A stretch of DNA of 64,000 nucleotides, taken from a virus. Location of the stretch: the IMG/VR virus record IMGVR_UViG_3300045988_113168; one strand, given 5' to 3'. Under the pieces are notes generated by a model that worked only from the letters and a program-made list of their open reading frames with translations, was not told where the DNA came from and did not search any database. Positions 1-62,704 of the stretch are shown piece after piece; within the stretch, counting starts at the first letter, position 1, and each line of letters starts with the position of its first letter. Position numbers and translations under genes: made by a program.

Positions 1-2
1 AC

Positions 3-632: not shown

Positions 633-700
633 TAACTTTGAGTTTGACAGCAATTCGTCAGAATGATATAATTGTACCATTAAGAAAAGGCGGTGCAATT

Positions 701-916: not shown

Positions 917-995
917 TTCAAGCGCAAAGTGAACACCGATTCGTCAAACACTTTATGAGCTCAAAAATCATAGGGTGTTTTCTTTTTGCTCTAAA

Positions 996-1064
996 TTGCA
1001 TATTTATGCAAATAATATGCAGAATATGCAAAACGAAAATTCAGTAAAACCTCACATTTATGCC
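996..1064. promoter_or_regulatory. cluster of TTGCAT/ATATGCA boxes (candidate operator or iteron set)
   Basis: Palindrome TTGCATATTTATGCAA at 996-1011. ATATGCA occurs at 1015-1021 and 1024-1030, and ATTTATGC is repeated at 1002-1009 and 1056-1063. The cluster sits in a 266-nt gap after the RHH-like gene. Confidence 0.4.
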
Positions 1065-1182
1065 GTGCGATTAGCGGTCATGGGGAAGATAGTATACCGC
1101 TACCAGCCCAACAGGGTGCGCAATAGCGTTATAAAAACGAATTGGTAAAGCCTGGTTTGTCCTGGCAGAAAGGATGTTTGTT

Positions 1183-1311
1183 ATGAAATCGCTTCTCATG
1201 TTCTTTGGTTACTCTGCTTATCAGGCAAGCTGTGTTGCTCCTGTGATGTGGATGTTCGTTGTTGGTGTCATCGCTATGGGCGTGGCAGAATGGAAAGGGT
1301 GGTTGAACTAA
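1183..1311 (+). CDS. small membrane protein (42 aa)
   Basis: Below the track cutoff. ATG 1183 follows AAAGGA. Contains the hydrophobic stretch VAPVMWMFVVGVIAMGV. Its TAA overlaps the next ATG (TAATG), suggesting translational coupling. Confidence 0.5.
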   Translation: MKSLLMFFGYSAYQASCVAPVMWMFVVGVIAMGVAEWKGWLN

Positions 1312-1583
1312 TGAAACTCGATCCTGTTTATTCCGATATTGTTAATCGCTTTCAGTATGTGAAAACGACTAACGCAGACGCTTGGCAGAAATATGTTAAG
1401 AGCGTCATTGCAGAGCATGAGTACAATGATCTGTTAACCCGGATTGCGTGGGATTTGCTCAGGTATGTGTACACTTCTGGTACGATTTGTGAGTGGTACG
1501 ATAAGTACAACGTACATGATTCCCATATCACAACGGCAGTCAAGAAGGCTTATGTTGAAGTCTTTGGAGTACCGTCAGAATAA
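1311..1583 (+). CDS. hypothetical protein
   Basis: Internal ATG of track ORF 1248..1583, overlapping the upstream stop (TAATG). Confidence 0.6.
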   Translation: MKLDPVYSDIVNRFQYVKTTNADAWQKYVKSVIAEHEYNDLLTRIAWDLLRYVYTSGTICEWYDKYNVHDSHITTAVKKAYVEVFGVPSE

Positions 1584-1639
1584 AAGATATGTTTTAAGGA
1601 AAGTTTGTTATGACCGCAAAAGAATAAGGAGAATGCAAA

Positions 1640-1780
1640 ATGAAAAAAGGTCAGTATTTTATGAACGATGAAACCGGTGTTATCACCAACATTCACAGGG
1701 AAGCTGTTGAATGGTTTCGGCAGGGTTCGAATGTTTCCATCTGGATTAACGGTGTTTTTGTATGCCGTTGGGGTCACTAA
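1640..1780 (+). CDS. hypothetical small protein (46 aa)
   Basis: Below the track cutoff. ATG 1640 lies 8 nt after AAGGAG. It fills the gap between neighbouring genes. Confidence 0.5.
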   Translation: MKKGQYFMNDETGVITNIHREAVEWFRQGSNVSIWINGVFVCRWGH

Positions 1781-1796
1781 GAAAGGAGAACATAAA

Positions 1797-2120
1797 ATGA
1801 GAGCAAGTGTTGAAGTGTACGAGAACAATGCAGGCGGTATCTTTGTTGCTGTCTTTGGTCAGAACGGCCTGGAAAATATCATTCCGGGGTTTTATCATGA
1901 AATGATTTCTACGGCAGAATTCATTGACCAGTGCCTGCATGGGTGCTATGAATCGGATGATTTCAATCCGGCAGAATTTTCCGGCATGGATATGGATTCT
2001 GTTTACAATGAAATCAGCAGTCAGGATGACTTGATTGCAGAGTTTTTCGACAACAAAGAAATCATCCTGTATCCGGCAGACATGGGTGTTGCCGGAATGA
2101 AACTGTTTGGCATGGCTTGA
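1797..2120 (+). CDS. hypothetical protein
   Basis: ATG 1797 (MRASVEVY) after AAAGGAGAA, inside track ORF 1668..2120. Confidence 0.65.
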   Translation: MRASVEVYENNAGGIFVAVFGQNGLENIIPGFYHEMISTAEFIDQCLHGCYESDDFNPAEFSGMDMDSVYNEISSQDDLIAEFFDNKEIILYPADMGVAGMKLFGMA

Positions 2121-2202
2121 CCGTATGTTCACAAAATGTTCGCAGAAATAAAACGTATCAACGCATTAAAATGTGACGTTAATAAAATCTACATTTTAGT
2201 GC

Positions 2203-2231
2203 TTGACAAAATTATCGGTATCCTGTATTAT
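2203..2231 (+). promoter_or_regulatory. sigma-A type promoter (TTGACA-17-TATTAT)
   Basis: TTGACA at 2203-2208, a 17-nt spacer ending GTATCCTG, TATTAT at 2226-2231. Same architecture as the promoters at 22426 and 46670. Confidence 0.6.
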
Positions 2232-2246
2232 GTAGCTAAGAAAGGC

Positions 2247-2271
2247 AGTCCGTTAGAGGACTTTTATTTTT
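2247..2271 (+). terminator. weak hairpin plus T-run
   Basis: AGTCC/GGACT 5-bp stem with loop GTTAGA, then TTTTATTTTT. It lies between the promoter and the inverted 20-mer. Confidence 0.3.
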
Positions 2272-2278
2272 ACCGTTC

Positions 2279-2298
2279 AGCTATATAACACAGGATAC
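2279..2298 (+). promoter_or_regulatory. conserved 20-mer AGCTATATAACACAGGATAC (reverse orientation of the promoter core)
   Basis: One of six same-orientation copies, 18 nt upstream of ATG 2316. Near-perfect inverted repeat of 2218-2238. Confidence 0.55.
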
Positions 2299-2315
2299 GA
2301 AAGAGAGGCTATAAA

Positions 2316-2549
2316 ATGGAACGGAATTGGAAACTTGGTGACGATATGGTTGTGAGCGACAATCTTCTGGATGGTATTACGTTTGATGATTTGATACTGA
2401 CAGTGCATTGCAACTGTCCCAAAATTACAGAACAGGCTGTAAAAAAAGAGCTGAAAGAAATTCTTGCGATTCATATGCAGGATATGGAATTTTTACTCGA
2501 AAACAATATCGACAAGATAATTGAGATGGCAAGTAAAAACAGAGAATAA
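2316..2549 (+). CDS. hypothetical protein
   Basis: Track ORF with AGAGAGG upstream. Confidence 0.65.
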   Translation: MERNWKLGDDMVVSDNLLDGITFDDLILTVHCNCPKITEQAVKKELKEILAIHMQDMEFLLENNIDKIIEMASKNRE

Positions 2550-2561
2550 GGAGAACTGGTT

Positions 2562-3059
2562 ATGAAACGCAATGACTATAATTACGAGAGCTTTTACTAC
2601 ACAAGCGACAGCTGCCTAATTCTTATGAATGAGGTTCGTTATAAGAAAAATGATTTCGGGGAGATGATTCTTGTACCGGATGAAACAAAGGAAGAAGTGA
2701 TTTCACCTACGTTTTACACAAACTATATCACAGCAATTCCGTTCTTTAATGATGATTTCTTTGGCCCTCATGCTTCTTGTGAAGCTAAATGGGATAGAAC
2801 GCCGGCAGGAGCTGTGCCTACTGTGGTAACAACGATCAATGGTGCAGGTGATGAAAAGATTGTCGCCACATTTACATTCATCAGCAAAAGTAAGCTTTTG
2901 GATACTGCTGGATGGCGTGAAAAGGAAGTCATCAAAAATGCAAAATACTTCCATATTGAAAGAATTGACGGTGCAGATATGATTTACTTCTACACTGAAA
3001 GTGATGGCGATACGGCAGAAGGCATTTTTGATACTAAGAGATCTATTTGGAGGGGTTAA
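2562..3059 (+). CDS. hypothetical protein
   Basis: Track ORF with AAGGAG upstream. Confidence 0.7.
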   Translation: MKRNDYNYESFYYTSDSCLILMNEVRYKKNDFGEMILVPDETKEEVISPTFYTNYITAIPFFNDDFFGPHASCEAKWDRTPAGAVPTVVTTINGAGDEKIVATFTFISKSKLLDTAGWREKEVIKNAKYFHIERIDGADMIYFYTESDGDTAEGIFDTKRSIWRG

Positions 3060-3063
3060 AATA

Positions 3064-3219
3064 ATGACTGATATTCAGAAAAAGATGTGGGATGCTCTTT
3101 GCAAAATGTCTGGTGAAGATGTCGCAAGGCTGTTTGTGAATTGGTGTGGAGAGCAAATTCTGGACAATGACTTCTACAAAAATATGGTTGATGAGGGAGA
3201 GATTGAAGATGAAGAATGA
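3064..3219 (+). CDS. hypothetical small protein
   Basis: ATG 3064 (MTDIQKK) after GGAGGGG, inside track ORF 3001..3219. Confidence 0.6.
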   Translation: MTDIQKKMWDALCKMSGEDVARLFVNWCGEQILDNDFYKNMVDEGEIEDEE

Positions 3220-3643
3220 TTTTTACTGGAACAAGAACTATATGACTATTGCAAAGAATATTACAGAAAGGCATCGCACAAAAATTATAATACATAAAAG
3301 CTGGCAGTGGTATCTTGCTGAGTTTGATTCGCTTGAACAGCTACATTTCTTTGAAAACGTAGTTGGGTTCAAAACTCATTTTATTGAAATGGAAAATGGA
3401 ATTGCAAGATTTTCATTAAGCCATGAGTTTAAAGAAGAAAAGTATTTCTGGAAATTGTCTGAGCTTCCGGCTGGTGTAAAGCCCATCAAAGCATTATGTA
3501 ATGGTAGTATTGTTACCTGCTATTTTTTGAATGATGGAAAAATCATTCATTGGTATCGTCCAAATCCTAATGCACGAAATGTTTATAAACCAATGACAAT
3601 ACAACAGCATATTAAGCACCGTGAGGTATTTGGTTCATATTGA
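3209..3643 (+). CDS. hypothetical protein
   Basis: ATG 3209 (MKNDFYW) after GAGGGAGAG, inside track ORF 3146..3643. Confidence 0.6.
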   Translation: MKNDFYWNKNYMTIAKNITERHRTKIIIHKSWQWYLAEFDSLEQLHFFENVVGFKTHFIEMENGIARFSLSHEFKEEKYFWKLSELPAGVKPIKALCNGSIVTCYFLNDGKIIHWYRPNPNARNVYKPMTIQQHIKHREVFGSY

Positions 3644-3664
3644 AACGAAATAGGAGGACGAAGA

Positions 3665-3904
3665 GTGATTATTGATTCTATTCTTGACCGTAAAAACGGC
3701 AGGCGATACAGCGCACATGACTTCTATCTTGAAGTCAGAAAGTATGAGAGTCTGGGTGTAGGCACTCACGGTGAAGATATTTCAATCGCTATAGATTATG
3801 GCGATAACAAAGATGTGCAGCGTGTTCTGTGTCAGTACATCCAGCGCAATGGATACCCAACAGATATTGAGGACTACATAAGAAGTCAAGTCTGGGTGGT
3901 ATAA
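3665..3904 (+). CDS. hypothetical protein
   Basis: GTG start after AGGAGGA. Track ORF. Confidence 0.6.
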   Translation: MIIDSILDRKNGRRYSAHDFYLEVRKYESLGVGTHGEDISIAIDYGDNKDVQRVLCQYIQRNGYPTDIEDYIRSQVWVV

Positions 3905-3993
3905 GTAGTGGATGCAGGTGATTAGCGGTACTAGGGCAGACATAACCGCTATCAGAATGCGAAAGCATAAAAATATTAAAAGGAGTGTTTGAC

Positions 3994-4284
3994 ATGAAGA
4001 AGTTTAATTCGACCTTAAATAAAGGGTTCAATATGACTTTTGCAAATGGTATTACTGCAAGCGTCCAGTGGGGAGCTGGGAATTATTGCGATAATTATTT
4101 TAGCAAAGACTTCTTTTTCTCAAAAGAAGCAAGTTCTAATACAGCAGAAGTGGCCGCATGGAATGAAAGCGGCGAATGGGTTACAAATAAGCTCTACGAC
4201 ACCTTGGATGATGTTGCTGGGTATCTTTCACCAAATGAAGTGTTACAGTTTTTGAATAACTGTGCGAATTACAAAACGGTTTAA
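3994..4284 (+). CDS. hypothetical protein
   Basis: ATG 3994 lies 8 nt after AAGGAG. Track ORF 3985..4284. Confidence 0.65.
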   Translation: MKKFNSTLNKGFNMTFANGITASVQWGAGNYCDNYFSKDFFFSKEASSNTAEVAAWNESGEWVTNKLYDTLDDVAGYLSPNEVLQFLNNCANYKTV

Positions 4285-4314
4285 AATCATGCTTTTATAA
4301 AGGAGTAAAACATC

Positions 4315-4620
4315 ATGACTATTGAAGAAGCAGTAAAGGATTTCATTGCAAAAGCAAACCCTTCTAAGTGGGAAGGATATAACGATGAGTCTCCCGAATG
4401 GGGAGATATTGTCCCCAGAGACGTTAACCTAAATGATTTTGAATATGATGTTGAAAATCGAAAAATTATTTTATCTTTTGTTTTTGATGACTACGGTCGG
4501 TTAGTAACATACTGTCGGATTTTTAACAAGAAGAAAGATGAATTGATGAATGCAGGCTATATTGGCAGCATTTGTTTTGCCGACATTATGTCAAATACAA
4601 TTCGTGGAATATTTTATTAA
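4315..4620 (+). CDS. hypothetical protein (shares N-terminal motif with 11395..11712)
   Basis: Track ORF with AAGGAG upstream. Motif DFIxKxNPxxWxG is shared with 11395..11712. Confidence 0.65.
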   Translation: MTIEEAVKDFIAKANPSKWEGYNDESPEWGDIVPRDVNLNDFEYDVENRKIILSFVFDDYGRLVTYCRIFNKKKDELMNAGYIGSICFADIMSNTIRGIFY

Positions 4621-4636
4621 CGAAAGGAAAATAAAA

Positions 4637-4792
4637 ATGAAGTATACCGTGAGCCTTGAAACAAAAGAAGTTTACGAAGTTGAAATCGAAGCGTCGGATG
4701 CAAATGTAGCCGAAAGAATTGCAATGGATATGTGGGAGGACGGGACATTAAAGCGAATGGATGGACTTATTGATTTTATTTCTAGTAAATGA
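4637..4792 (+). CDS. hypothetical small protein
   Basis: ATG 4637 (MKYTVSLE) after AAAGGAAAA, inside track ORF 4550..4792. Confidence 0.55.
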   Translation: MKYTVSLETKEVYEVEIEASDANVAERIAMDMWEDGTLKRMDGLIDFISSK

Positions 4793-4812
4793 TAAAAGGA
4801 GAAAATAAAAAA

Positions 4813-4962
4813 ATGTATACAGTAGAAGATTTTTATAAAGCGTATTCATGTTTGTACAAAACAACTAAAGAAGAAGCTATTGAAGTATATAAAAATTGCA
4901 GCGAGGAATTTGCTTATGAAACGATTTGTCGTTATAGATACCCTGATAAATATCCTTTCTAA
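4813..4962 (+). CDS. hypothetical small protein (49 aa)
   Basis: Below the track cutoff. ATG 4813 follows AAAGGAGAA. Confidence 0.5.
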   Translation: MYTVEDFYKAYSCLYKTTKEEAIEVYKNCSEEFAYETICRYRYPDKYPF

Positions 4963-4995
4963 GGGAATATTCCTTATCAAAATTGAGGTGATAAT

Positions 4996-5241
4996 ATGAT
5001 GCGTAATTGTTGGATTGTCACATACAAAGATTATCACGGAGAATATAGCTAGTGTGTTTTTTATAAAAAAGAGGATGCAGAAAAATGTATCAAAGAGGAT
5101 TTTGAAAACGCGTTGCATGACTTAAAAAAAGATGGGTGGTATGACCCGTACACGGTTGATGGAACGTATTGGAAGACAATATTTATTCCGAATACCGATA
5201 TTGATTATGAATGGAATCTTAAGATTTCAACCATTAGATGA
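4996..5241 (+). CDS. hypothetical protein with in-frame TAG at 5050-5052
   Basis: ATG 4996 after GAGGTGA. 18 codons, then TAG, then 62 further open codons with protein-like composition and no internal start, ending at TGA 5239-5241. It fills an otherwise gene-free 300-nt gap. Confidence 0.5.
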
Positions 5242-5281
5242 CGAATAAAACAGATATTTTACAATGATTGAGGTGATAAAT

Positions 5282-5515
5282 ATGACCGAAAAAGATAAGC
5301 GTATTTTAAAATATGCGATTGATAATCTGATTGCAAGAGAGAATAGTTTGTGCGATGGATTTTGTAAGAATAATCCTACACATAAAGCAGAGCGTGAACG
5401 TGATAGAGATTTGATTATCTTTGGTATTCGTGATGTTTTATGTGAAGTTGAGCGTCTTGAAGAACAGGAAAAAGAGATGCTTGAAAATTCTAAACATGAA
5501 GTGGTTCAGTTTTGA
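5282..5515 (+). CDS. hypothetical protein
   Basis: ATG 5282 after GAGGTGA, inside track ORF 5264..5515. Confidence 0.65.
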   Translation: MTEKDKRILKYAIDNLIARENSLCDGFCKNNPTHKAERERDRDLIIFGIRDVLCEVERLEEQEKEMLENSKHEVVQF

Positions 5516-5529
5516 TTGGAGTGATAAAA

Positions 5530-5838
5530 ATGTATAGTAGTGAAACTGTAAAACAAGTTAATGATTGGATGATTAACAATATTTCCGACTGGATGGTTGA
5601 GAATGGAACGGAAAACACCACAGAGGGTAATTGGATTATTTACACTGATGAAATTGTGAAGAAGTTCAATGTGACAAAGAATTGGATTACTGCATTTCGT
5701 GATGAAATCATCGATGCTCTTTATGAACACGAAGCAGTTGCAGATGTAACTTATGGATGGTTTCCCGATGGCGATGTAGAATGTTTCGACATTGATTTTT
5801 ATACAAGTTTTTGCCTAAACCTGAGTAGTGAAGATTGA
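5530..5838 (+). CDS. hypothetical protein, paralogue of 9690..10184
   Basis: ATG 5530 after GGAGTGA. Clear similarity to the N-terminal half of 9690..10184 (WMVENGTENT / YMVEYGTKNT, KKFNVTKNWI / KKFNITEKWI, FDIDFYT / FDVNFYT). Confidence 0.7.
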   Translation: MYSSETVKQVNDWMINNISDWMVENGTENTTEGNWIIYTDEIVKKFNVTKNWITAFRDEIIDALYEHEAVADVTYGWFPDGDVECFDIDFYTSFCLNLSSED

Positions 5839-5850
5839 GGTAATAAAAAA

Positions 5851-6192
5851 ATGAGTAGTTATAAACCGGAAGAAATCTGGACTGCATTTGATGTTTTATC
5901 AAGCAGAATTGCCGATTCTGATGAAATCGGACAGAAGCGTTTAAGACAAATCAAAATCACTCTTACAGAATACTTTGGAATGACTAGACATCTAAAGAAA
6001 ACTCCTTTATGGGATATTTTTGAGTATGAAAAGAAGCTGGAACAGCCGCTTGGCCTTCTGGTTTATGAAAATAATCATCTCAAAGAAGAAATCAATAAAC
6101 TTCATAAAAAGCTGGGTATTAAAGAAAAGTATAAAACAAATCCATACGATTATATGTTCCAAGATGAAGATGGATTTAGAGACAAGGAATGA
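5851..6192 (+). CDS. hypothetical protein
   Basis: Track ORF with GAGGTAA upstream. Confidence 0.65.
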   Translation: MSSYKPEEIWTAFDVLSSRIADSDEIGQKRLRQIKITLTEYFGMTRHLKKTPLWDIFEYEKKLEQPLGLLVYENNHLKEEINKLHKKLGIKEKYKTNPYDYMFQDEDGFRDKE

Positions 6193-6196
6193 AAAT

Positions 6197-6382
6197 ATGA
6201 CAAACACTGAAAAGAATATCGTTCTCGCAGCTCTTTCTTCTTATCGGCGTAAGCTGATGGATCAGAGTGTTTCATTCCTTAGAGCTGGCAATCACGAGGA
6301 TGCAAAGCAGTCAACGATAGAAGCGGCCAACGTGAATGCATTGGTGATTAAGTTTACAAGAGAAAAGGAGTTTGCAATATGA
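6197..6382 (+). CDS. hypothetical small protein
   Basis: ATG 6197 (MTNTEKN) after AAGGAA, inside track ORF 6020..6382. Confidence 0.55.
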   Translation: MTNTEKNIVLAALSSYRRKLMDQSVSFLRAGNHEDAKQSTIEAANVNALVIKFTREKEFAI

Positions 6383-6666
6383 GAAACCTGTCTAAGCAGA
6401 ACCGTAAGAAAATTTTTGATTTGATTCGTCGGGATTGTGATTTCGTTGGTTCTTACGATTTGGAACATTCTGAAGAAAGTGTTTTGACCTATCTTCCGAA
6501 GCGTGGAACACAGATCTACAAAGATGTTGAAGAAGTTCGTGTCGTAAAAAATCGCAAGACCGGAAACTGGGTTGAGTCCATTATTGATGTGCGTTGGCAG
6601 TACGGTATGACTTGCGCTGATGCAGAGATGATTGAACGTAAGTATCAGTGTAAGTCTAATAAGTAA
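6379..6666 (+). CDS. hypothetical protein (N-terminus paralogous to 49581..49919)
   Basis: ATGA overlap with the upstream gene. MRNLSKQNRKKIFDLIRRDCDF compares with MRNMSKKTRKKVMQIIKANCHF. Confidence 0.65.
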   Translation: MRNLSKQNRKKIFDLIRRDCDFVGSYDLEHSEESVLTYLPKRGTQIYKDVEEVRVVKNRKTGNWVESIIDVRWQYGMTCADAEMIERKYQCKSNK

Positions 6667-6678
6667 GGAGTTTGCAGT

Positions 6679-6999
6679 ATGAATAACGAAAATAAGATTG
6701 TTGTGACTAGTTGGGATGGTAAGTCTTGGGAAATGACTCCTGAACAGATTGAGGCGGCTTACCGTTACAAAGAACGTCAGTATCGCATTGAGGATGCTAA
6801 GAATCAGCTTGAATTTTACGCGGATTGGATTAAAGAAAAATACGGCTATTCCTACGATGAAGTTATTGAACATGCAGAGGAGTTGGCTGAATGTTTTCAG
6901 GACAATTTTGATTGTGATATGTCGGAAAATAGCTTATGGTCTAGTTTTATCACGGAAATGTTTGACGGACTTAGCAGAAAGGAAAATAACGATGACTGA
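6679..6999 (+). CDS. hypothetical protein
   Basis: Track ORF with AAGGAG upstream. Confidence 0.7.
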   Translation: MNNENKIVVTSWDGKSWEMTPEQIEAAYRYKERQYRIEDAKNQLEFYADWIKEKYGYSYDEVIEHAEELAECFQDNFDCDMSENSLWSSFITEMFDGLSRKENNDD

Positions 7000-7222
7000 C
7001 CCCTGTCGTTATTGTGTAGCGCCGGAGCGTTATCCTGGTTGTCACGACCATTGTGAGAAGCTGAAGGCTCATCGTGAAAGTGACGAGTATAAAAAGCTGT
7101 GTGAGTATAAAGATACATATTTCAAAAGTCACCTTTGCAAGAATACGGTAGCAATCTATCACGATATGCGTCGCAGAAAACACAAAGGAATGTCTTGCCT
7201 TGGATATAAAGGAATAGGTTAA
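6992..7222 (+). CDS. Cys-rich hypothetical protein
   Basis: ATG 6992 (MTDPCRYC) after AAAGGAAAA, inside track ORF 6749..7222. CxxC and CxxxC motifs present. Confidence 0.6.
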   Translation: MTDPCRYCVAPERYPGCHDHCEKLKAHRESDEYKKLCEYKDTYFKSHLCKNTVAIYHDMRRRKHKGMSCLGYKGIG

Positions 7223-7234
7223 GGAGGAAATAAA

Positions 7235-7477
7235 ATGTGGGATTTAATTGAAGATGAATACTCTGAAGAATATAAAATCGGAAGAGCAAAATTCAAGAAC
7301 AAACAAACAGGTCATTACTTTACAATCATGTATAGGATATTTAGCTTTGACATTTCTTTTTATTATCCAGAGTATTCTTTCTCTATCACTCTTACTACCG
7401 TAAGAGATAAAGAAGAAATGAAAGGAATTATTATTTTAAGACATTCTAAAGCTTTGGCTAAAACTTTGGAGGATTAA
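7235..7477 (+). CDS. hypothetical protein
   Basis: Track ORF with AAGGAGGA upstream. Confidence 0.65.
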   Translation: MWDLIEDEYSEEYKIGRAKFKNKQTGHYFTIMYRIFSFDISFYYPEYSFSITLTTVRDKEEMKGIIILRHSKALAKTLED

Positions 7478-7479
7478 CT

Positions 7480-7728
7480 ATGTGGGATTTAAGAGAAGTT
7501 CATGCACTGTACGATGGTGAATGTTGGGTCTGGAATGAATCTTTCCATCACAAGAATGTGTTCGTAGACGAGAATGAAGATCCGAAAGAAATCTTTTGGC
7601 AGGAATGTCAGATGTTCTTCCTTCAGGACTATCTAAGCAGGTGTGAAATCGTGGATGATGGCGATATCCTGGAACTTCAGTTGAAGGATTCCGGTGAGCC
7701 GGTTCTCGCTATGATTATTGAAGAGTAA
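7480..7728 (+). CDS. hypothetical protein
   Basis: Track ORF with GGAGGA upstream. Confidence 0.65.
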   Translation: MWDLREVHALYDGECWVWNESFHHKNVFVDENEDPKEIFWQECQMFFLQDYLSRCEIVDDGDILELQLKDSGEPVLAMIIEE

Positions 7729-7741
7729 AGGAGAATGAGTT

Positions 7742-7912
7742 ATGCAGCAATACGAAATTGTATTTTACCGCAATGATATTCTCGATGAGTTAATTCCGTT
7801 TAAGAAAATGCATAAGGAATTTAATTCATATCAGGAAGCAAGAGTGTGGGCGCAAAATGAATTGTATGACTTGCCTACGGCAGTCGCAATGAATGTGTTT
7901 ATGGACATTTGA
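7742..7912 (+). CDS. hypothetical small protein (56 aa)
   Basis: Below the track cutoff. ATG 7742 follows AAGGAGAA. Confidence 0.55.
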   Translation: MQQYEIVFYRNDILDELIPFKKMHKEFNSYQEARVWAQNELYDLPTAVAMNVFMDI

Positions 7913-7921
7913 GGTGACAAT

Positions 7922-8167
7922 ATGGACGCCTTACATACGATTATAAAAGAACTGAGAGCAGGTAAGGTTTATGGTAAAACCTATGAGGGTCGAATCGAAC
8001 CGTATTTCTGGTTTGTTATGTATAAAGATGGCAACCTTATCCGTTGGAGACATTTTGGTGAAAGTTCAAACCGTTGCAATTTGAAAGACCTCAAATGGAT
8101 AATAAAGGTCATCTTCAAGACAACGCCAGAGAAGTTTATTGAAGAGTACGAATGTAAATACTGGTGA
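7922..8167 (+). CDS. hypothetical protein
   Basis: Track ORF with GAGGTGA upstream. Confidence 0.65.
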   Translation: MDALHTIIKELRAGKVYGKTYEGRIEPYFWFVMYKDGNLIRWRHFGESSNRCNLKDLKWIIKVIFKTTPEKFIEEYECKYW

Positions 8168-8186
8168 TAAAAGGGAGATTTTAGAT

Positions 8187-8684
8187 ATGAGTAAGTATAT
8201 TTTGATTACCGTCAACGAACGTAAAATTTTTGAGCCTAGCTATTTTGAAGCTCTTGATGAAGCTCAAATAGAAATGAGAAAACGTGTTAACCAGATTGTA
8301 AATCAGTCTGGTGGAGAAAATTGCGTAGATTTTAAAATCTTCTCTGAAGAAGCTTATGTGACGGACGCTCATTTTGAGCGTGGTGATGGAAATTGGGATT
8401 TCGCTATCTGTGAAATGGCTGATGCGAAAAACGCTGAAAACATTAAAGACGCCAAATTTACTTCTGTGTGGGATGGTGGTTTTGAAATCACCACAACTTG
8501 CAAAGTGAATATGGAGTCGAAAGAGATTTTTGATATTGAAGTGTCGGAATCGAACTCGGATATGGTAGAACAACTTGATGGCGAATGCGTCACTATTGAT
8601 GGAATTGACTATCGCGCAGTTACCGCAGAATATGCCAATCTATATCCAGAAGAGATGGATGAGGAGACCTTCTGGTATGAATGA
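8187..8684 (+). CDS. hypothetical protein
   Basis: ATG 8187 (MSKYILI) after AAGGGAGA, inside track ORF 8139..8684. Confidence 0.65.
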   Translation: MSKYILITVNERKIFEPSYFEALDEAQIEMRKRVNQIVNQSGGENCVDFKIFSEEAYVTDAHFERGDGNWDFAICEMADAKNAENIKDAKFTSVWDGGFEITTTCKVNMESKEIFDIEVSESNSDMVEQLDGECVTIDGIDYRAVTAEYANLYPEEMDEETFWYE

Positions 8685-8802
8685 GAGAGGCACGAGATGG
8701 AGTATATGAAGAGGATGTCTAATTTGAAAATTATAATATGAGAGAAAATTGGGATTTTAAGATTTTCGAAATCTCTAAATAAATTGAAAGGATGTTTTAG
8801 AT

Positions 8803-9669
8803 ATGACTAATTTATATTGCTATGACAATGAGATTATAAAATGGACTTACGACGACAATCTATATTGTTTGCATATTCAGCACGACGACATTGCAGATAA
8901 CAATCCTCGTTGGTGGGATGACCATGATTCTGTAATGGCCTGTTTTCATCCACGTTATCGTCTTGGCGACAAGATTGATGCGAGTACGGCAGAAGAGTTT
9001 TGGAACGATCTGGTTTACAAATATTGTTATGATGATGAAGTTCTTGATGCGCTTTTTAATATGAAGCTGGAAGATACCTGTGTCGTTGTTGATGAGAATT
9101 ACAGTGACGAAAAACGATATGCTATCTGTGGTATCGGAACTCTTTTTAATGAAAAGGTTTCTAATAATCCAATGTATGTTGGATTGAAGTATAACGAAAT
9201 TGCTACATATGTTGCTGGTGAGTTTTCGATTCGCGATTGTCAGATTCTTCTTGATAAGTATATTGCATGGCTTCCTCTTTGGTTGCATGATCATTCTGAT
9301 TTGTCTATGGATTGCGATACGCGATTCAGAGGTTCATGGGATGATAGTAATGTTGGTTGGATTGTGACAGCTATTACGGATGGTTCAGATAATACCAAAA
9401 ATGAAGCAGAACGAATCATGCGTGATGAGGTAAAGGAATACAGTGACTATCTTTCTGGTGAGAACTATGGCTATACGCTTTATCGAGAAGAACACGGAGA
9501 ATGGAAAGAGATTGACAGAGCATTCGGATTTATCGGTTCTGACGTGTTTGAAAACGGTATCACATACAGTGCAGGCTATGGTCTTGAAAAGGAATTAAGG
9601 GAAGATCGATGCCGTATTGGTGATGCAGAAAAGGTTGTGACGGTCACTTATAAATTTGATAAATGTTGA
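8803..9669 (+). CDS. hypothetical protein (288 aa)
   Basis: Track ORF with AAAGGA upstream. No motif recognised with confidence. Confidence 0.7.
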   Translation: MTNLYCYDNEIIKWTYDDNLYCLHIQHDDIADNNPRWWDDHDSVMACFHPRYRLGDKIDASTAEEFWNDLVYKYCYDDEVLDALFNMKLEDTCVVVDENYSDEKRYAICGIGTLFNEKVSNNPMYVGLKYNEIATYVAGEFSIRDCQILLDKYIAWLPLWLHDHSDLSMDCDTRFRGSWDDSNVGWIVTAITDGSDNTKNEAERIMRDEVKEYSDYLSGENYGYTLYREEHGEWKEIDRAFGFIGSDVFENGITYSAGYGLEKELREDRCRIGDAEKVVTVTYKFDKC

Positions 9670-9689
9670 ATTTTAGGAGGAAAATAAAG

Positions 9690-10184: not shown

Positions 10185-10187
10185 GGT

Positions 10188-10502
10188 ATGTTTGTGGTGG
10201 TTAGAGATTATTACGATGAGGATGTAATGGCTTTTCCTAAATTCGAAATTTGTAAGACGTTTATTGATGCTCGATTTGCAGTTGGTTACGCCGACAATCT
10301 ATATTCTGATTATAAAAATGAAAATCGAGATGAAGATGCGAGTTACGACTTGGATAAGATTGATTTATATCCTTCAAAAGATGATTGTGAAAACATTTGT
10401 GGTTTGCGAGTAAAACCGAACCCCAAATATATTGTTGGTGAATATGCTACGAATTGTTTTGGTGATGGATACCATAATTACTATTGTGTTGTTGAAGTAT
10501 AA
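10188..10502 (+). CDS. hypothetical protein
   Basis: Track ORF with GAGGTG upstream. Confidence 0.65.
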   Translation: MFVVVRDYYDEDVMAFPKFEICKTFIDARFAVGYADNLYSDYKNENRDEDASYDLDKIDLYPSKDDCENICGLRVKPNPKYIVGEYATNCFGDGYHNYYCVVEV

Positions 10503-10517
10503 AAGGAGAGTTTTATT

Positions 10518-10897: not shown

Positions 10898-10910
10898 AGG
10901 AGAAAGATAT

Positions 10911-26308: not shown

Positions 26309-26387
26309 GGCCCTATGGCGGAACGAGGCATACGCAACAAGCTCAAACCTTGTAAAATTCTCAGTTCAAATCTGAGTAGGGCTACCA
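26309..26387 (+). tRNA. tRNA, anticodon CAA (Leu-type 5' half) but with short variable region, CCA encoded
   Basis: Hand-folded cloverleaf. Acceptor GGCCCTA/TAGGGCT, D arm GCG-12 nt-CGC (class II-like), anticodon arm ACAAG-CTCAAAC-CTTGT, 6-nt variable region, T arm CTCAG-TTCAAAT-CTGAG, A73, CCA. Confidence 0.6.
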
Positions 26388-26466
26388 ACCCATTTGCAGA
26401 TGGGTAAGTGCTAGAATATTGGCAAATCGGAAAGACGGTTGACTGCTGGACAGACAGCTTTGATAT

Positions 26467-26551
26467 GTCACTATGGCGAAATTGGCGAGACGCATCGGAC
26501 TTAAGTTCCGACGGTAGCGATACCATCTGGGTTCGACTCCCAGTAGTGACA
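26467..26551 (+). tRNA. tRNA-Leu(TAA)
   Basis: Acceptor GTCACTA/TAGTGAC, anticodon arm TCGGA-CTTAAGT-TCCGA, 15-nt variable arm, T arm CTGGG-TTCGACT-CCCAG, A73. No CCA encoded. Confidence 0.8.
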
Positions 26552-26558
26552 CTGATAT

Positions 26559-26634
26559 CCGGGTGTAGCTCAGTTGGAAGAGCGCGTGCTTTGGGAGCAT
26601 GAGGCCGCAGGATCGTGACCTGTCACTCGGACCA
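26559..26634 (+). tRNA. tRNA-Pro(TGG)
   Basis: Acceptor CCGGGTG/CACTCGG, D arm GCTC-AGTTGGAA-GAGC, anticodon loop TTTGGGA, T arm GCAGG-ATCGTGA-CCTGT (A54/T58), CCA encoded. Confidence 0.8.
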
Positions 26635-26666
26635 GCCCGAAAGGGCATGTAGAATTTTTCATTCAC

Positions 26667-26722
26667 ATTATTCCCAGCTCTCTGGAAACAGAGCAGTGTG
26701 GCGTAGCAAGCTGGGTAGATTA
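26667..26722 (+). ncRNA. conserved 56-nt structured element, copy 1 (immediately 5' of tRNA-Gln)
   Basis: ATTATTCCCAGCTC is identical to copy 2. Outer helix 26673-79/26709-15. Inner hairpin CTCTG-GAAA-CAGAG at 26680-93. Confidence 0.55.
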
Positions 26723-26794
26723 CGAGGATTAGCCAAGCGGATAAGGCAGTGGAATTTGACTCCACGACCGCAGGTTCGATTCCTGTATCCTCGA
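26723..26794 (+). tRNA. tRNA-Gln(TTG)
   Basis: Acceptor CGAGGAT/ATCCTCG, D arm GCCAAGCGGATAAGGC (typical of tRNA-Gln), anticodon loop ATTTGAC, T arm GCAGG-TTCGATT-CCTGT. Confidence 0.8.
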
Positions 26795-26801
26795 TTTATA
26801 T

Positions 26802-26886
26802 GCGGGTATGGTGTAACTGGCAGCCACGCGGATTTTAGGTGTCCGTGCCGAAAGGCGTGAGGGATCGTGCCCCTCTACCCGTACCA
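26802..26886 (+). tRNA. tRNA-Leu(TAG)
   Basis: Acceptor GCGGGTA/TACCCGT, anticodon arm CGGAT-TTTAGGT-GTCCG, 13-nt variable arm TGCCGAAAGGCGT, T arm GAGGG-ATCGTGC-CCCTC (A54/T58), CCA encoded. Confidence 0.8.
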
Positions 26887-26933
26887 CGGTCATAGAATGG
26901 TTGCGTACCGTTTGTTGATCTCCTTTGACCACT

Positions 26934-26989
26934 ATTATTCCCAGCTCGCTCGTAAGAGTGCAGTAGTGCTTTGTAAGCTGAGTGATTGT
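26934..26989 (+). ncRNA. conserved 56-nt structured element, copy 2 (immediately 5' of irregular tRNA-like element)
   Basis: Same length and same distance to the downstream cloverleaf as copy 1. Inner hairpin CGCTC-GTAA-GAGTG at 26947-60 carries compensatory changes. Confidence 0.55.
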
Positions 26990-27061
26990 GCAGTTATGGT
27001 GTAGTTGGTAAGCACGCTTGCTGATGAAGTAAGAGGATGAGTTCAAAACTCATTGACTGCA
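26990..27061 (+). tRNA. irregular tRNA-like element (anticodon loop TGATGAA, 3-nt variable region)
   Basis: Acceptor GCAGTTA/TGACTGC, D arm GTGT-AGTTGGTAA-GCAC and T arm ATGAG-TTCAAAA-CTCAT are good. However position 33 is G and the variable region is too short. The nominal anticodon is ATG. Confidence 0.35.
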
Positions 27062-27065
27062 AAAT

Positions 27066-27258
27066 ATGAAATCAGTTGTTCTAGCTCGTTCGTGGATTGG
27101 CCGTACATTGGCGACCGGAAAGACGTCATACCGGTAAAGGACGTCAAGCCAGACAAGAAGAGAAATAAGGTGTAAGCCGACTAGCTATCGGATAAATACT
27201 CTTCGGTTCGCCAGAAAACTAGAATGTAAAACGAATGGTTGGCTGTTTCTGATTTCAT
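27066..27258 (+). ncRNA. about 193-nt structured non-tRNA spacer RNA
   Basis: Closed by a perfect 10-bp helix (27066-75 ATGAAATCAG / 27249-58 CTGATTTCAT) and a second helix (27079-84 / 27219-24). Interleaved helices 27114-18/27131-35 and 27122-27/27140-45 look pseudoknot-like. Hairpin CCGA-CTAGCTA-TCGG. No convincing ORF or SD. Confidence 0.5.
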
Positions 27259-27264
27259 TTATAT

Positions 27265-27340
27265 GCGACTGTAGTTCAATTGGCAGAGCGTCAGATTTCC
27301 AATCTGAATGTTGCGGGATCGTGCCCCGTCAGTCGCTCCA
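27265..27340 (+). tRNA. tRNA-Gly(TCC)
   Basis: Acceptor GCGACTG/CAGTCGC, anticodon arm TCAGA-TTTCCAA-TCTGA, T arm GCGGG-ATCGTGC-CCCGT (A54/T58), U73, CCA encoded. Confidence 0.85.
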
Positions 27341-27471
27341 CACGCAGCCCCTTACGCTGCACCGGTTGCTCAGAGCCGAAAGAAACCTATATGTTACGAC
27401 ATGGTTGCCAAGAGTGATCATATTGGAACGCGACGTAGCTTGGATAGTGAGAATTAAATTCTGAGGTATAC

Positions 27472-27540
27472 TGCTGGATAGCTTAATGGTAAAAGCGCTC
27501 GGAAACGCCGAGAGATAAGGTTCGATTCCTTCACTGGCAT
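27472..27540 (+). tRNA. degenerate tRNA-like element (no usable anticodon loop)
   Basis: The D arm GCTT-AATGGTAA-AAGC and T loop GGTTCGATTCC are good. The anticodon arm is replaced by CTCGG-AAACG-CCGAG (5-nt loop) and the acceptor pairing is weak. Confidence 0.3.
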
Positions 27541-27567
27541 CACGCCGATGAAAGTCGGCGTTTGCAT

Positions 27568-27644
27568 GGGATAGTAGCTCAGTTGGTCAGAGCTGGCGGC
27601 TCATAACCGCTTGGTCGCGAGTTCAAATCTTGCCTGTCCCACCA
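27568..27644 (+). tRNA. tRNA with CAT anticodon (elongator Met or Ile2; not initiator-like)
   Basis: Acceptor GGGATAG/CTGTCCC with a paired 1-72, anticodon arm GGCGG-CTCATAA-CCGCT, T arm GCGAG-TTCAAAT-CTTGC, CCA encoded. Confidence 0.8.
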
Positions 27645-62200: not shown

Positions 62201-62473
62201 ATGAATGTTATAAAGCATGGAACGCATCGAGCAAAAGATTCTGAAAATTTATATAAAGTGACTTGTAATTCTTGCGGGTGTGTATTTGAAGCTAAAAGAT
62301 CTGAATTTCATGTATGGCCTTTACCAGCACGACCTGTTAGCGAAACGGTAAAAAATTATGATAATACAGGGCGTCCGGCAGAAATACAATGTCCTGAGTG
62401 CAAATGCACTTGTGGAATTAGAATGAGATTGCTTGCAAGAGAATCTGTCTTTTTACACGCATATTGTAGGTGA
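62201..62473 (+). CDS. zinc-ribbon protein, member 1 of a tandem paralogue trio
   Basis: ATG 62201 after GGGAGGAA. CNSCGC...CPECKC. Confidence 0.6.
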   Translation: MNVIKHGTHRAKDSENLYKVTCNSCGCVFEAKRSEFHVWPLPARPVSETVKNYDNTGRPAEIQCPECKCTCGIRMRLLARESVFLHAYCR

Positions 62474-62477
62474 TAGT

Positions 62478-62696
62478 ATGAAAGCACATATTCGAGAAGA
62501 AAAGAAAACAACTCCATTAAAACTTGGTGAGGGAACATTACTTCAAGAGAAAGACGGCAAACTGTATAAGATTTGTGATACAGTAGAATATGATGATACG
62601 CATACCGACGATGAAGTTATCAAGGTTGCTTTATCTGAAGAAAATATGATTGTTGGATCGAACTTTTTAATGCATCGTTTGTGTTCACAGATTTAG
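62478..62696 (+). CDS. hypothetical protein
   Basis: ATG 62478 after AGGTGA, inside track ORF 62433..62696. Confidence 0.55.
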   Translation: MKAHIREEKKTTPLKLGEGTLLQEKDGKLYKICDTVEYDDTHTDDEVIKVALSEENMIVGSNFLMHRLCSQI

Positions 62697-62704
62697 GTGT
62701 AGAT

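What the first reader, a model, noticed from the sequence alone, without database searches (positions are those of the whole stretch)
4996..5241. Small gene with an in-frame TAG (5050) and 62 further open codons
ATG 4996 has a good GAGGTGA ribosome-binding site. After 18 codons there is a TAG, and the same frame then runs another 62 codons to TGA 5239-5241. The downstream part has no ATG or GTG start and no SD of its own. Its composition is protein-like (CVFYKKEDAEKCIKEDFENALHDLKKDGWYDPYTVDG...). The joined N-terminus (WIVTYKDYHGEYS-x-CVFYKKEDAEKCIKEDF) resembles the uninterrupted start of 10188..10502 (FVVVRDYYDEDVMAFPKFEICKTFIDARF). Without readthrough this densely packed genome would have a 300-nt hole here.
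Basis: seen in the sequence. Interest (0 to 1): 0.65.

Follow-up and report, generated by a model that had tools for sequence, protein, structure and literature searches.

The report
Amber codon in suppressor-carrying phage clade
A small early phage gene is interrupted by a real TAG codon that homologues read straight through, and the phage belongs to a common human-gut clade in which about two-thirds of genomes carry their own Trp-type amber-suppressor tRNA and place TAG at tryptophan positions of essential late genes, so the TAG is probably translated rather than a dead end.

Summary
In detail: ATG 4996, 18 codons, TAG 5050-5052, 62 open codons, TGA 5239-5241. The TAG is real, with identical alleles in at least 8 independent assemblies. 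One A-to-T change of an ancestral AAG (Lys) made it. All homologues, in a family of ~80-aa phage proteins, span the site. The claimed resemblance to 10188..10502 is not supported.

The window is the early and replication half of a ~135-kb SPbeta-like phage of gut Lachnospiraceae. It has no suppressor tRNA and no other in-frame TAG, but only 1 of 105 genes ends in TAG.

Outside the window, 62-69% of related genomes carry a tRNA(CUA) in the slot that otherwise holds tRNA-Trp(CCA). Those genomes have 1-3 in-frame TAGs at conserved Trp positions of the large terminase and neighbouring late genes (46/50 against 3/22, p=9e-11).

I could not reach that region in the window's own strain. Its closest relative there differs by 1 base in 1,394 and carries the suppressor.

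Best reading (about 0.6): suppressor-mediated readthrough gives an 81-aa protein. Main rival (about 0.3): a plain nonsense allele of a dispensable gene.

The parts
4983..4994 (+). TTGAGGTGATAA: ribosome-binding site of the gene and left copy of a 12-nt direct repeat that brackets it
   Evidence: The 12-mer occurs only twice in the 64-kb window, at 4983 and 5268. Relatives lacking the gene (L022, L024) are joined exactly at this motif.
4996..5049 (+). First 18 codons (MMRNCWIVTYKDYHGEYS), encoding strand beta1 and the beta1-beta2 turn of the domain
   Evidence: Aligns with residues 1-18 of uninterrupted homologues. AF2 model pLDDT 95, beta1 = residues 3-11.
5050..5052 (+). In-frame amber codon TAG (codon 19); AAG (Lys) in all intact homologues
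   Evidence: L003, L006, L019, L020 and L021 have AAG here. The alignment column is highly variable across the family. The identical TAG is in L001, L002, L010, L119, L120, L123 and L125.
5053..5241 (+). 62 further sense codons plus TGA stop, encoding beta2-alpha-beta3-beta4-beta5 of the domain
   Evidence: dN/dS against homologues for this part is 0.17-0.25.
5057..5062 (+). T6 homopolymer; it is T5 in L002, which puts the GTG at 5052 (overlapping the TAG) in frame and gave the 62-aa database protein P0003
5124..5130 (+). A7 homopolymer; it is A6 in L001, which shifts the frame downstream of the TAG (database protein P0005)
5268..5279 (+). Right copy of the TTGAGGTGATAA direct repeat, which is the RBS of the next gene (5282-5515, 77 aa)
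   Evidence: The 77-aa gene is listed in 314 blocks of the collection.
26309..27644 (+). tRNA array 1 of the window (Leu, Leu, Pro, Gln, Leu, 'His', Gly, Met, plus a weak tRNA-like hit at 27472-27540); it contains no CUA-anticodon tRNA
   Evidence: ARAGORN, sequence reading, Rfam, and the structure-aware CUA-tRNA scan, which found none in the window.
62433..62696 (+). The only + strand gene in the window that ends in TAG (TAG-GTT-TAG), illustrating the near-absence of TAG stops
   Evidence: 1 of 105 + strand genes; binomial p=2.5e-5 against the 11.9% expected from stop-trinucleotide frequencies.

Best explanation
The TAG at 5050 is an amber codon inside a genuine 81-codon gene for a small alpha/beta phage protein of unknown function. 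It arose from AAG (Lys) by one A-to-T transversion. The genome belongs to a very common SPbeta-like temperate phage clade of human-gut Lachnospiraceae in which TAG is a facultative sense codon. About two-thirds of genomes carry one tRNA with anticodon CUA, in the array slot that otherwise holds tRNA-Trp(CCA). Those genomes place TAG at conserved Trp positions of the large terminase and neighbouring late genes. The most likely mechanism here is that the strain's own suppressor tRNA, encoded about 15 kb to the left of the window, inserts an amino acid (most likely Trp) at codon 19. That is a variable position at the start of strand beta2, so the full 81-aa protein is made whenever the suppressor is expressed, and only an 18-residue peptide otherwise.

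Shown: the gene, the TAG and its ancestry; homologues spanning the site; the suppressor tRNAs and their tight association with in-frame TAG at Trp sites in the clade; the avoidance of TAG stops.

Inferred: that this particular strain carries the suppressor; that TAG is read as Trp; that the K19W protein is functional.
For: - Homologues span the site. Three uninterrupted 80-81-aa homologues have AAG/Lys there, and the 50-member family aligns over the full length.
- The fold needs both halves: AF2 pLDDT 95, beta1 3-11, beta2 17-22.
- The family is under purifying selection (omega 0.2-0.37). The window-allele branch has 4 synonymous and 4 nonsynonymous changes (omega about 0.2; binomial against neutrality p about 0.03, my calculation).
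- Column 19 is highly variable.
- The TAG allele is 100% identical in at least 6 assemblies and sits in at least 3 mosaic backgrounds.
- TAG stops are nearly absent: 1/105 in the window (p=2.5e-5), 0/25 in the - strand cluster, and 0/638 and 1/259 in late genes of relatives.
- CUA tRNAs are cloverleaf, with loop CU-CUA-AA, G73, and an acceptor end like the clade's tRNA-Trp. They occupy the same slot with homologous flanks as tRNA-Trp(CCA) and are mutually exclusive with it (0/9).
- In-frame TAG events go with the suppressor: 46/50 against 3/22 (p=9e-11, OR 73). JGI/ENA replication: 6/16 against 0/11.
- Seven recurrent TAG sites align with W in spanning homologues (W/F/Y at one of them).
- Linkage to this strain: L125 is 100% identical to window 1-10916. 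Its RNAP N-terminus differs by 1 base in 1,394 from L213, which has the suppressor 7,137 nt from the RNAP start. The 9 nearest RNAP relatives, and 16 of the 20 nearest left-flank relatives, are suppressor-positive.
Against: - No CUA tRNA lies in the 64-kb window or in the 9.3 kb to its left that I could read. The array-2 region of this strain could not be fetched.
- About one-third of the clade lacks the suppressor, and genomes are highly mosaic, with a breakpoint only 80 nt from the RNAP start.
- The ancestral residue is Lys, whereas the clade's fixed TAG sites are Trp. Readthrough would therefore give K19W, not restoration of the ancestral residue.
- The gene is in the early region, unlike the typical late-gene TAGs.
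- Two of the TAG-allele contigs carry an extra 1-nt homopolymer deletion downstream of the TAG, the only indels in 2.8 and 1.6 kb. This is weak evidence, because 3 of 6 and 3 of 5 long homopolymers of those stretches lie in this gene and one contig has about 3x coverage.
- The gene is dispensable: it is absent or replaced in many relatives.
Confidence: 0.6

Rival explanations
1. Plain nonsense allele. A recent AAG-to-TAG mutation inactivated a dispensable accessory early gene. The allele persists and spreads by hitch-hiking and recombination, only the 18-residue peptide is made, and the downstream 189 nt are a young pseudogene remnant.
For: - The gene slot is a mosaic cassette position. Unrelated 83-aa or 64-aa genes, or nothing, occupy it in close relatives, with junctions at the flanking 12-nt repeat.
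- L130 is 99.8% identical to window 1-4999 yet lacks the gene.
- All TAG alleles are identical, so they share a recent ancestor, and the low omega of the branch could predate the mutation.
- Two TAG-allele contigs carry additional frameshifting homopolymer deletions.
- No suppressor is visible in the 73 kb of this strain that I could read.
- The site is Lys, not Trp.
Against: - The clade decodes TAG in most members, and the strain's nearest relatives at the adjacent locus are all suppressor-positive.
- TAG is avoided as a stop throughout.
- The downstream frame is intact in 6 of 8 assemblies.
- No intact version of this allele lineage (>=90% identical) exists among 5.8 billion clustered proteins.
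- The indel clustering is explained by homopolymer density.
Confidence: 0.3
2. Readthrough occurs but TAG is decoded as glutamine (genetic code 15), as in previously described TAG-recoded phages and as the gene caller behind P0005 assumed.
For: - Code 15 is the usual phage TAG reassignment (bioRxiv 10.1101/2021.08.26.457843; PMC10607447).
- A few singleton TAGs in suppressor-bearing genomes align with Q: the ClpP-like gene in L103, an early gene in L021, and TerL in L313.
- From my own knowledge: in E. coli, a Trp tRNA with a CUA anticodon (su7) is largely charged with Gln.
Against: - All seven recurrent sites, 88 locus-events, align with Trp (W/F/Y at one site) and none with Gln.
- The suppressor replaces tRNA-Trp(CCA) in the same slot and shares its acceptor end.
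- P0005's Q is only a translation-table choice on TAG-containing DNA.
Confidence: 0.05
3. Split gene. The 18-residue peptide terminates at TAG and the C-terminal part is made separately by reinitiation, from the in-frame TTG at 5113 or, in the T5 variant, from the GTG overlapping the TAG.
For: - In L002 a 1-nt deletion puts GTG 5052 (TA-GTG overlap) in frame, and a 62-aa protein was called.
- In the window, TTG 5113 is preceded by AAAGAGGA 13 nt upstream.
Against: - In the window allele, GTG 5052 is out of frame and stops after 4 codons.
- The fold model shows beta1 and beta2 as integral strands of the sheet, so a fragment lacking them is unlikely to fold.
- All 50 family representatives that match do so over the full domain.
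- L002 has about 3x coverage.
Confidence: 0.04
4. Sequencing or assembly error: the true codon is a sense codon.
For: None beyond the prior that single-base errors exist.
Against: The same TAG is present in at least 8 independent assemblies from different studies and assemblers.
Confidence: 0.01

Closest known systems
Stop-codon recoding in gut phages through phage-encoded suppressor tRNAs (Lak, crAss-like, Garnet, Topaz, Jade, Agate and others; Borges et al., bioRxiv 10.1101/2021.08.26.457843)
   Same: - Phage-encoded tRNA(CUA).
- In-frame TAG in the terminase and other late genes of phages whose hosts use the standard code.
- Prior depletion of TAG as a stop codon.
- Closely related genomes with and without recoding.
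- Proposed role in gating late or lytic gene expression, including in prophages.
   Different: - TAG aligns with Trp, not Gln; that paper reports TAG->Gln and TGA->Trp.
- Recoding is very sparse, at 1-3 codons per ~12 kb of late genes, instead of most structural genes.
- It is polymorphic within one clade (about 2/3 against 1/3), with the suppressor allelic to tRNA-Trp(CCA).
- The codon studied here is in an early accessory gene at a Lys position.
phAss-1 / proposed Phassvirus group (PMC10607447)
   Same: About 136-kb human-gut phage genomes with tRNA-SUP-CTA genes and TAG inside TerL and other signature genes.
   Different: - A different lineage: no DNA match to the window, and it is not among the listed top PolIII-alpha hits.
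- 37-41 ORFs per genome carry TAG, with two or three suppressor genes and 28-36 tRNAs.
- TAG aligns with Gln.
Classical amber nonsense alleles rescued by suppressor tRNAs (for example E. coli su7, a tRNA-Trp with CUA anticodon; phage amber mutants). Recalled from my own knowledge, not tested here.
   Same: A single-base change creates TAG in a protein-coding gene, and expression depends on a tRNA whose anticodon was changed to CUA. A Trp-tRNA-derived suppressor is the closest analogue.
   Different: Here the suppressor is a natural, phage-borne, population-level polymorphism coupled to fixed TAG codons in essential genes, not a laboratory mutant. The charging identity in Lachnospiraceae is unknown.
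Bacillus phage SPbeta-like temperate phages (genome type). SPbeta features recalled from my own knowledge; no SPbeta sequence was compared here.
   Same: About 135-kb genome; a YonO-like single-subunit RNA polymerase hitting Pfam RdRP PF05183; a DnaE-like PolIII alpha, ribonucleotide reductase and integrases; long arrays of small early genes.
   Different: The host clade is Lachnospiraceae rather than Bacillus. The nearest isolate phage is only 47% identical in PolIII alpha. To my knowledge, no suppressor-tRNA/TAG system is described for SPbeta.

Membership tests
Phage stop-codon recoding by a phage-encoded suppressor tRNA | In-frame stop codon inside a conserved gene, with homologues continuing across the position | tested here: met
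   Window gene. Clade late genes.
Phage stop-codon recoding by a phage-encoded suppressor tRNA | A tRNA with the matching anticodon (CUA) encoded in the same phage genome | not testable with these tools
   Present in 63/101 and 50/72 related genomes. Absent from the window and from the 9.3 kb to its left. The expected position, about 15 kb left of the window, could not be fetched for this strain. The closest relative at the adjacent locus has it.
Phage stop-codon recoding by a phage-encoded suppressor tRNA | The recoded codon is depleted as a true stop codon | tested here: met
   1/105 in the window (p=2.5e-5); 0/25 in the - strand cluster; 0/638 and 1/259 in late genes of relatives.
Phage stop-codon recoding by a phage-encoded suppressor tRNA | Recoded codons concentrated in late (structural, packaging, lysis) genes | tested here: inconclusive
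   The clade's recurrent TAGs are in TerL and adjacent late genes. The codon in question is in the early small-gene region, and the window (early plus replication genes) has no other case.
Genetic code 15 (TAG = Gln) | In-frame TAG aligns with Gln in homologues | tested here: not met
   Seven recurrent sites align with Trp (W/F/Y at one). The window site aligns with Lys. Only a few singletons align with Gln.
Pseudogene created by a nonsense mutation | Premature stop relative to full-length homologues | tested here: met
Pseudogene created by a nonsense mutation | Relaxed selection or further disabling lesions on the interrupted lineage | tested here: inconclusive
   The branch has 4 synonymous and 4 nonsynonymous changes (omega about 0.2), but the alleles are identical, so the time since the TAG arose may be short. 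Two contigs carry 1-nt homopolymer deletions, which homopolymer density and low coverage can explain.
Pseudogene created by a nonsense mutation | No means of decoding the stop codon in the organism | tested here: inconclusive
   The means exists in most of the clade and is unverified in this strain.
Pyrrolysine decoding (ARAGORN labels the CUA tRNAs 'Pyl') | The tRNA and its TAG sites show pyrrolysine-specific features, rather than those of a canonical tRNA placed at ordinary residues | tested here: not met
   The label follows from the anticodon alone. The tRNAs share acceptor end and genomic slot with tRNA-Trp(CCA), and TAG sites sit at Trp positions of the terminase and other phage proteins. 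pyl biosynthesis genes were not searched for.

The most novel reading that the evidence does not exclude
A very common human-gut phage clade (SPbeta-like, Lachnospiraceae) is caught at an early, still polymorphic stage of a genetic-code change of a kind I could not find described: TAG to tryptophan. A suppressor tRNA allelic to the phage's own tRNA-Trp(CCA) is coupled to one to three TAG codons at invariant Trp positions of the terminase and neighbouring late genes, effectively a tRNA-dependent lock on packaging. TAG has already been purged as a stop codon from the whole clade. The window's TAG at a Lys position of an early accessory gene would then be one of the first 'spill-over' sense uses of the new codon outside the late module.
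Probability: 0.5. Interest if true: 0.8.

Novelty: new variant of a known kind. Interest (0 to 1): 0.62.

Why it matters
- **For annotation.** The 300-nt 'hole' is a real gene that standard-code callers miss. In the clade's suppressor-bearing genomes, the terminase and other late genes are split by standard-code translation. ARAGORN also missed about half of the suppressor tRNAs here, so suppressor surveys can be badly undercounted.
- **For biology.** The clade offers closely related natural genomes with and without amber suppression. The suppressor replaces tRNA-Trp in one slot, and only a handful of TAG codons sit at Trp positions of essential packaging genes. That is close to a minimal natural system for asking how a code change starts, whether it gates the lytic programme of a temperate phage, and which amino acid a Trp-derived CUA tRNA carries in Clostridia.
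- **For experiments.** Related prophage-like regions (PolIII alpha 60-74% identical) occur in cultured Roseburia and Acetatifactor strains. If those relatives carry the suppressor, which I did not check, the system is open to experiment.

Tried and rejected
- **Genome-wide TAG recoding within the window: rejected.** No other coding frame is interrupted, and long genes such as PolIII alpha have no TAG.
- **Suppressor in the window's tRNA array: none.**. The odd 'His(atg)' tRNA and the weak tRNA-like hit at 27472-27540 do not have CUA.
- **Paralogy with 10188..10502: no significant similarity.**
- **'Q at the TAG position' in P0005 as evidence for a CAG allele: rejected.** Its DNA has TAG.
- **Clustering of indels in the gene as proof of decay: downgraded** after counting homopolymers.
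- **First TAG survey: swamped by non-coding frames**. It was fixed with a codon-usage filter and a spanning-homologue test.
- **First suppressor classification by ARAGORN: wrong.** It produced spurious 'TAG without suppressor' genomes and was corrected with Rfam and a structure-aware pattern.
- **Reaching array 2 of the window strain: failed by every route.**
  - A look-up of an ORF with the wrong start found nothing.
  - Homologue searches with the 358-aa protein and with the RNAP N-terminus returned no exact id that could be looked up.
  - IMG/VR and JGI scans found only a relative, L135 = L213.
- **Function of the protein: unknown.** No Pfam or PHROG family, no significant PDB fold match, and only uncharacterised phage proteins in BFVD.
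- **phAss-1 as the same phage group: rejected.**

Full report
**1. The observation**

The sequence is as described. GAGGTGA lies at 4985-4991 and ATGATG at 4996. Eighteen sense codons follow (MMRNCWIVTYKDYHGEYS), then TAG at 5050-5052, then 62 sense codons to TGA at 5239-5241. No in-frame ATG or GTG follows the TAG. The claimed similarity of the joined N-terminus to the protein of 10188..10502 is not supported: tblastn does not find it even at E<=10, and BLASTP gives only an unrelated 31-residue match at E=0.09.

**2. Is it a real gene, and is the TAG real?**

A search of 5.8 billion clustered proteins with the joined translation found three uninterrupted proteins of 80-81 aa (P0001, P0002, P0004; 72-78% identical, 100% coverage). 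All three have Lys at the TAG position. In their DNA the codon is AAG (L003, L006, L019, L020, L021), so a single A-to-T transversion made the TAG.

A profile search of 1.84 billion representatives found 50 family members. Most are about 80 aa and align over profile positions 1-80. In a 25-sequence alignment every member spans the site, and the column is highly variable.

With that alignment, AlphaFold2 gives a confident model (pLDDT 95, pTM 0.81): beta1 3-11, beta2 17-22, helix 25-45, beta3 52-55, beta4 59-63, beta5 70-80. The 18 codons before the TAG therefore encode an integral strand, and the TAG lies at the start of beta2.

No Pfam or PHROG family matches. There is no significant PDB fold match. 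In BFVD the only matches are uncharacterised small phage proteins, with TM up to 0.80-0.83.

Pairwise dN/dS in the family is 0.2-0.37. The branch leading to the window allele has 4 synonymous and 4 nonsynonymous changes plus the nonsense change.

One trap: the near-identical database protein P0005 shows Gln at the site, but its DNA (L001) has TAG. The Q comes from a gene caller choosing a TAG=Gln table.

The same TAG allele, 100% identical over 246 nt, occurs in L010, L119, L120, L123 and L125. L001 and L002 carry it with one extra 1-nt homopolymer deletion each (A7 to A6, T6 to T5). It is therefore not a sequencing error. L119 and L120 differ from the window by 2-10% in flanking blocks, so the allele sits in several mosaic backgrounds.

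The two deletions are the only indels in 2.8 kb and 1.6 kb. However, 3 of the 6 and 3 of the 5 homopolymers of 6 nt or more in those stretches lie in this gene, and L002 has about 3x coverage. They are weak evidence of decay.

**3. Genomic setting**

All real genes in the window are on the + strand. The window holds about 100 small early genes, followed by RNA ligase/polynucleotide kinase, a tRNA array, DnaB, primase, RecJ, PolIII alpha, an exonuclease V/helicase-like protein, DNA ligase and NrdD.

Relatives show, to the left of the window, a divergent cluster with a YonO-like RNA polymerase that hits Pfam RdRP. Integrases lie further right.

Complete-looking contigs cluster at 128-141 kb. Some neighbours of the gene occur in hundreds of assemblies, in contigs up to 435 kb. 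PolIII alpha relatives at 60-74% identity lie in Roseburia, Acetatifactor and other Lachnospiraceae/Clostridia genomes. The nearest isolate phage is Clostridium phage Amboise at 47%. Together this describes a widespread SPbeta-like temperate phage of gut Lachnospiraceae.

The slot holding the gene is a cassette position. Other genomes have an unrelated 83-aa gene, an unrelated 64-aa gene, or nothing. The gene is bracketed by a 12-nt direct repeat, TTGAGGTGATAA, which occurs only twice in the window (4983 and 5268). Genomes lacking the gene are joined at that motif. The gene is therefore dispensable in nature.

**4. TAG in this genome and clade**

Inside the window no other coding frame is interrupted by TAG, and there is no CUA tRNA. 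Yet only 1 of 105 + strand genes ends in TAG. About 12% would be expected from the frequencies of the three stop trinucleotides, giving p=2.5e-5. The same holds for 25 genes of the - strand cluster (0 TAG) and for late genes of relatives (0/638 and 1/259).

**5. The turn: a suppressor tRNA and TAG at Trp codons**

I walked outward through IMG/VR loci anchored on the RNA polymerase gene. A second tRNA array lies 4-5 kb downstream of that gene, and in many genomes it contains a tRNA with anticodon CUA.

These tRNAs fold as cloverleaves with loop CU-CUA-AA, discriminator G73 and an encoded CCA. Their acceptor end is that of the clade's tRNA-Trp(CCA). ARAGORN missed about half of them, namely the types with a short D-arm located just after tRNA-Lys. 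Rfam and a structure-aware pattern recovered them.

With the corrected classification:
- 63 of 101 unique RNAP-anchored genomes and 50 of 72 unique TerL-anchored genomes carry one suppressor.
- The suppressor sits in the same slot, with homologous flanks, as tRNA-Trp(CCA) in other genomes.
- None of the 9 loci with tRNA-Trp(CCA) also has a suppressor.

I then screened for in-frame TAGs in true coding frames, requiring positive codon-usage scores on both sides and uninterrupted homologues spanning the site. This found ten site types in the ~20 kb around the large terminase (identified by Pfam Terminase_6N and TerL_ATPase). Seven recur in many genomes, two of them just before the Walker A motif of TerL. 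At six of the seven, the spanning homologues have Trp; at the seventh they have W/F/Y. The three remaining singleton events fall at Q, Q and Y/S/H positions.

In-frame TAG events occur in 46 of 50 suppressor-bearing genomes and in 3 of 22 without a suppressor (Fisher p=9e-11, odds ratio 73). In the independent JGI/ENA loci, TerL carries a TAG in 6 of 16 suppressor-bearing genomes and 0 of 11 others. A few non-Trp events also occur in suppressor-bearing genomes: a ClpP-like gene in L103 and an early gene in L021 on the same contig, both at Gln positions.

The exclusive Trp pattern of the recurrent sites, together with the tRNA's slot and acceptor end, argues that TAG is read as Trp. Published phage recodings are TAG to Gln and TGA to Trp. 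A full-text search for TAG/UAG-to-tryptophan phrases found nothing. That is absence of evidence only.

**6. Does the window's own strain have the suppressor?**

I could not read that region. L125 (ENA ERZ28658762 scaffold_68) is 100.000% identical to window 1-10916. L123 has 1 mismatch in 14,620. Both carry the TAG allele and extend only 9.3 and 5.7 kb to the left. The array should lie about 15 kb to the left.

All routes failed. Homologue searches returned no exact protein that could be looked up. IMG/VR and JGI lack this strain.

Circumstantial linkage is good:
- Over L125 positions 1-1394 (the RNAP N-terminus and start, the part closest to the array), the strain differs by one base from L213/L135. 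L213/L135 has the suppressor 7,137 nt from the RNAP start and a TAG at a Trp site of a late gene.
- A recombination breakpoint lies at about 1395, on the early-region side.
- The nine closest RNAP relatives are all suppressor-positive, as are 16 of the 20 closest relatives across the left flank.

**7. Interpretation**

The most likely reading (about 0.6) is that the TAG is translated by the phage's own Trp-type amber suppressor. That would give an 81-aa protein with Trp at a variable position at the start of beta2, so in this genetic background the AAG-to-TAG change is effectively a tolerated missense change. Expression of the full protein would depend on when the suppressor is expressed, which is not known.

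The main rival (about 0.3) is a plain nonsense allele of a dispensable gene, either because this strain lacks the suppressor or because the product is no longer functional. Minor rivals are Gln insertion, separate expression of the C-terminal fragment, and sequencing error (excluded).

**8. Novelty**

Phage stop-codon recoding through suppressor tRNAs is known. What differs here:
- the inferred amino acid (Trp for TAG);
- the sparseness (1-3 codons in the ~12 kb of late genes examined);
- the within-clade polymorphism, with an allelic tRNA-Trp/suppressor slot;
- the genome type and host (SPbeta-like, Lachnospiraceae).

The window's codon itself is an atypical member of the set: an early gene at a Lys site. 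I file it as a new variant of a known kind.

Noticed in passing
window 4983-4994 and 5268-5279; L022 around 12596-12606; L024 around 12645-12680: The gene is bracketed by a 12-nt direct repeat (TTGAGGTGATAA, the RBS region of two successive genes) that is unique to these two places in the window. Relatives lacking the gene, or lacking a 1.2-kb block of four genes, are joined exactly there. Other genomes hold unrelated 83-aa or 64-aa genes in the same slot. This looks like cassette exchange by recombination at conserved RBS junctions.
   Followed up: partly
window 26989-27062 and 27472-27540: Two odd tRNA-like genes in the window's array. One is a 'tRNA-His' with anticodon ATG and G instead of U at position 33. 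The other is a weak Rfam tRNA hit (32 bits) that ARAGORN does not call, whose anticodon arm has a 5-nt loop (or a 4-bp stem with loop GAAACGC). Neither reads UAG.
   Followed up: partly
loci L293, L294, L308, L315-L318, L354, L046, L080, L157, L162, L163, L068 (tRNA array 2): ARAGORN fails to call about half of the clade's CUA suppressor tRNAs, those with a 3-bp D-stem lying directly after tRNA-Lys(UUU). Rfam's tRNA model scores them at 45 bits in the three loci checked. Surveys that rely on one tRNA finder would undercount suppressors.
   Followed up: yes
L354 16485-16826 and L294 16502-16845: Group I catalytic introns (Rfam RF00028, 73-79 bits) in the late-gene region of two relatives.
   Followed up: no
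L132 and L133, 10400-10882 (- strand): A ToxN-family toxin gene (Pfam PF13958, type III toxin-antitoxin/abortive infection) is inserted in the early region of two relatives, just right of the 71-aa gene that corresponds to window 701-916.
   Followed up: no
L125 6176-8033; L006 2109-4471; similar in L003-L005 and L022-L025: A gene-free stretch of about 1.9-2.4 kb separates the divergent - strand cluster (389-aa gene and onward) from the first + strand early genes. It is unusually long for this densely packed genome and is possibly a regulatory or origin region, or a non-coding RNA.
   Followed up: no
window 62433-62702: The only + strand gene ending in TAG has a second TAG two codons later (TAG-GTT-TAG), and the frame then runs 8 more codons to TGA. 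If TAG is suppressed, this gene would gain a 10-residue extension.
   Followed up: no
proteins P0011-P0013 and many others: Many database entries for the YonO-like RNA polymerase are 543-657 aa instead of about 927 aa, including three of exactly 547 aa at 87-91% identity. They may be genes split by an in-frame stop (possibly TAG) or by contig ends.
   Followed up: no
L103 14303; L021 19539 (same IMG/VR contig _112453); L022 18331; L040 6714: Further in-frame TAGs outside the late module: in a ClpP-like protease gene (Gln in 50 homologues), in two early genes (Gln in 7 homologues; Trp in 2), and near the end of another early gene. This shows the window's case is not unique in the clade. The L103/L021 contig and L040 carry the suppressor; the status of L022 is unknown.
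   Followed up: partly
L017 (ERZ23880488 NODE_2, 435,815 nt) and L022-L025 (209-288 kb contigs): Contigs far longer than the ~135-kb phage genome carry this phage, which suggests integrated prophages with host flanks. These would allow direct host identification and attachment-site mapping.
   Followed up: no
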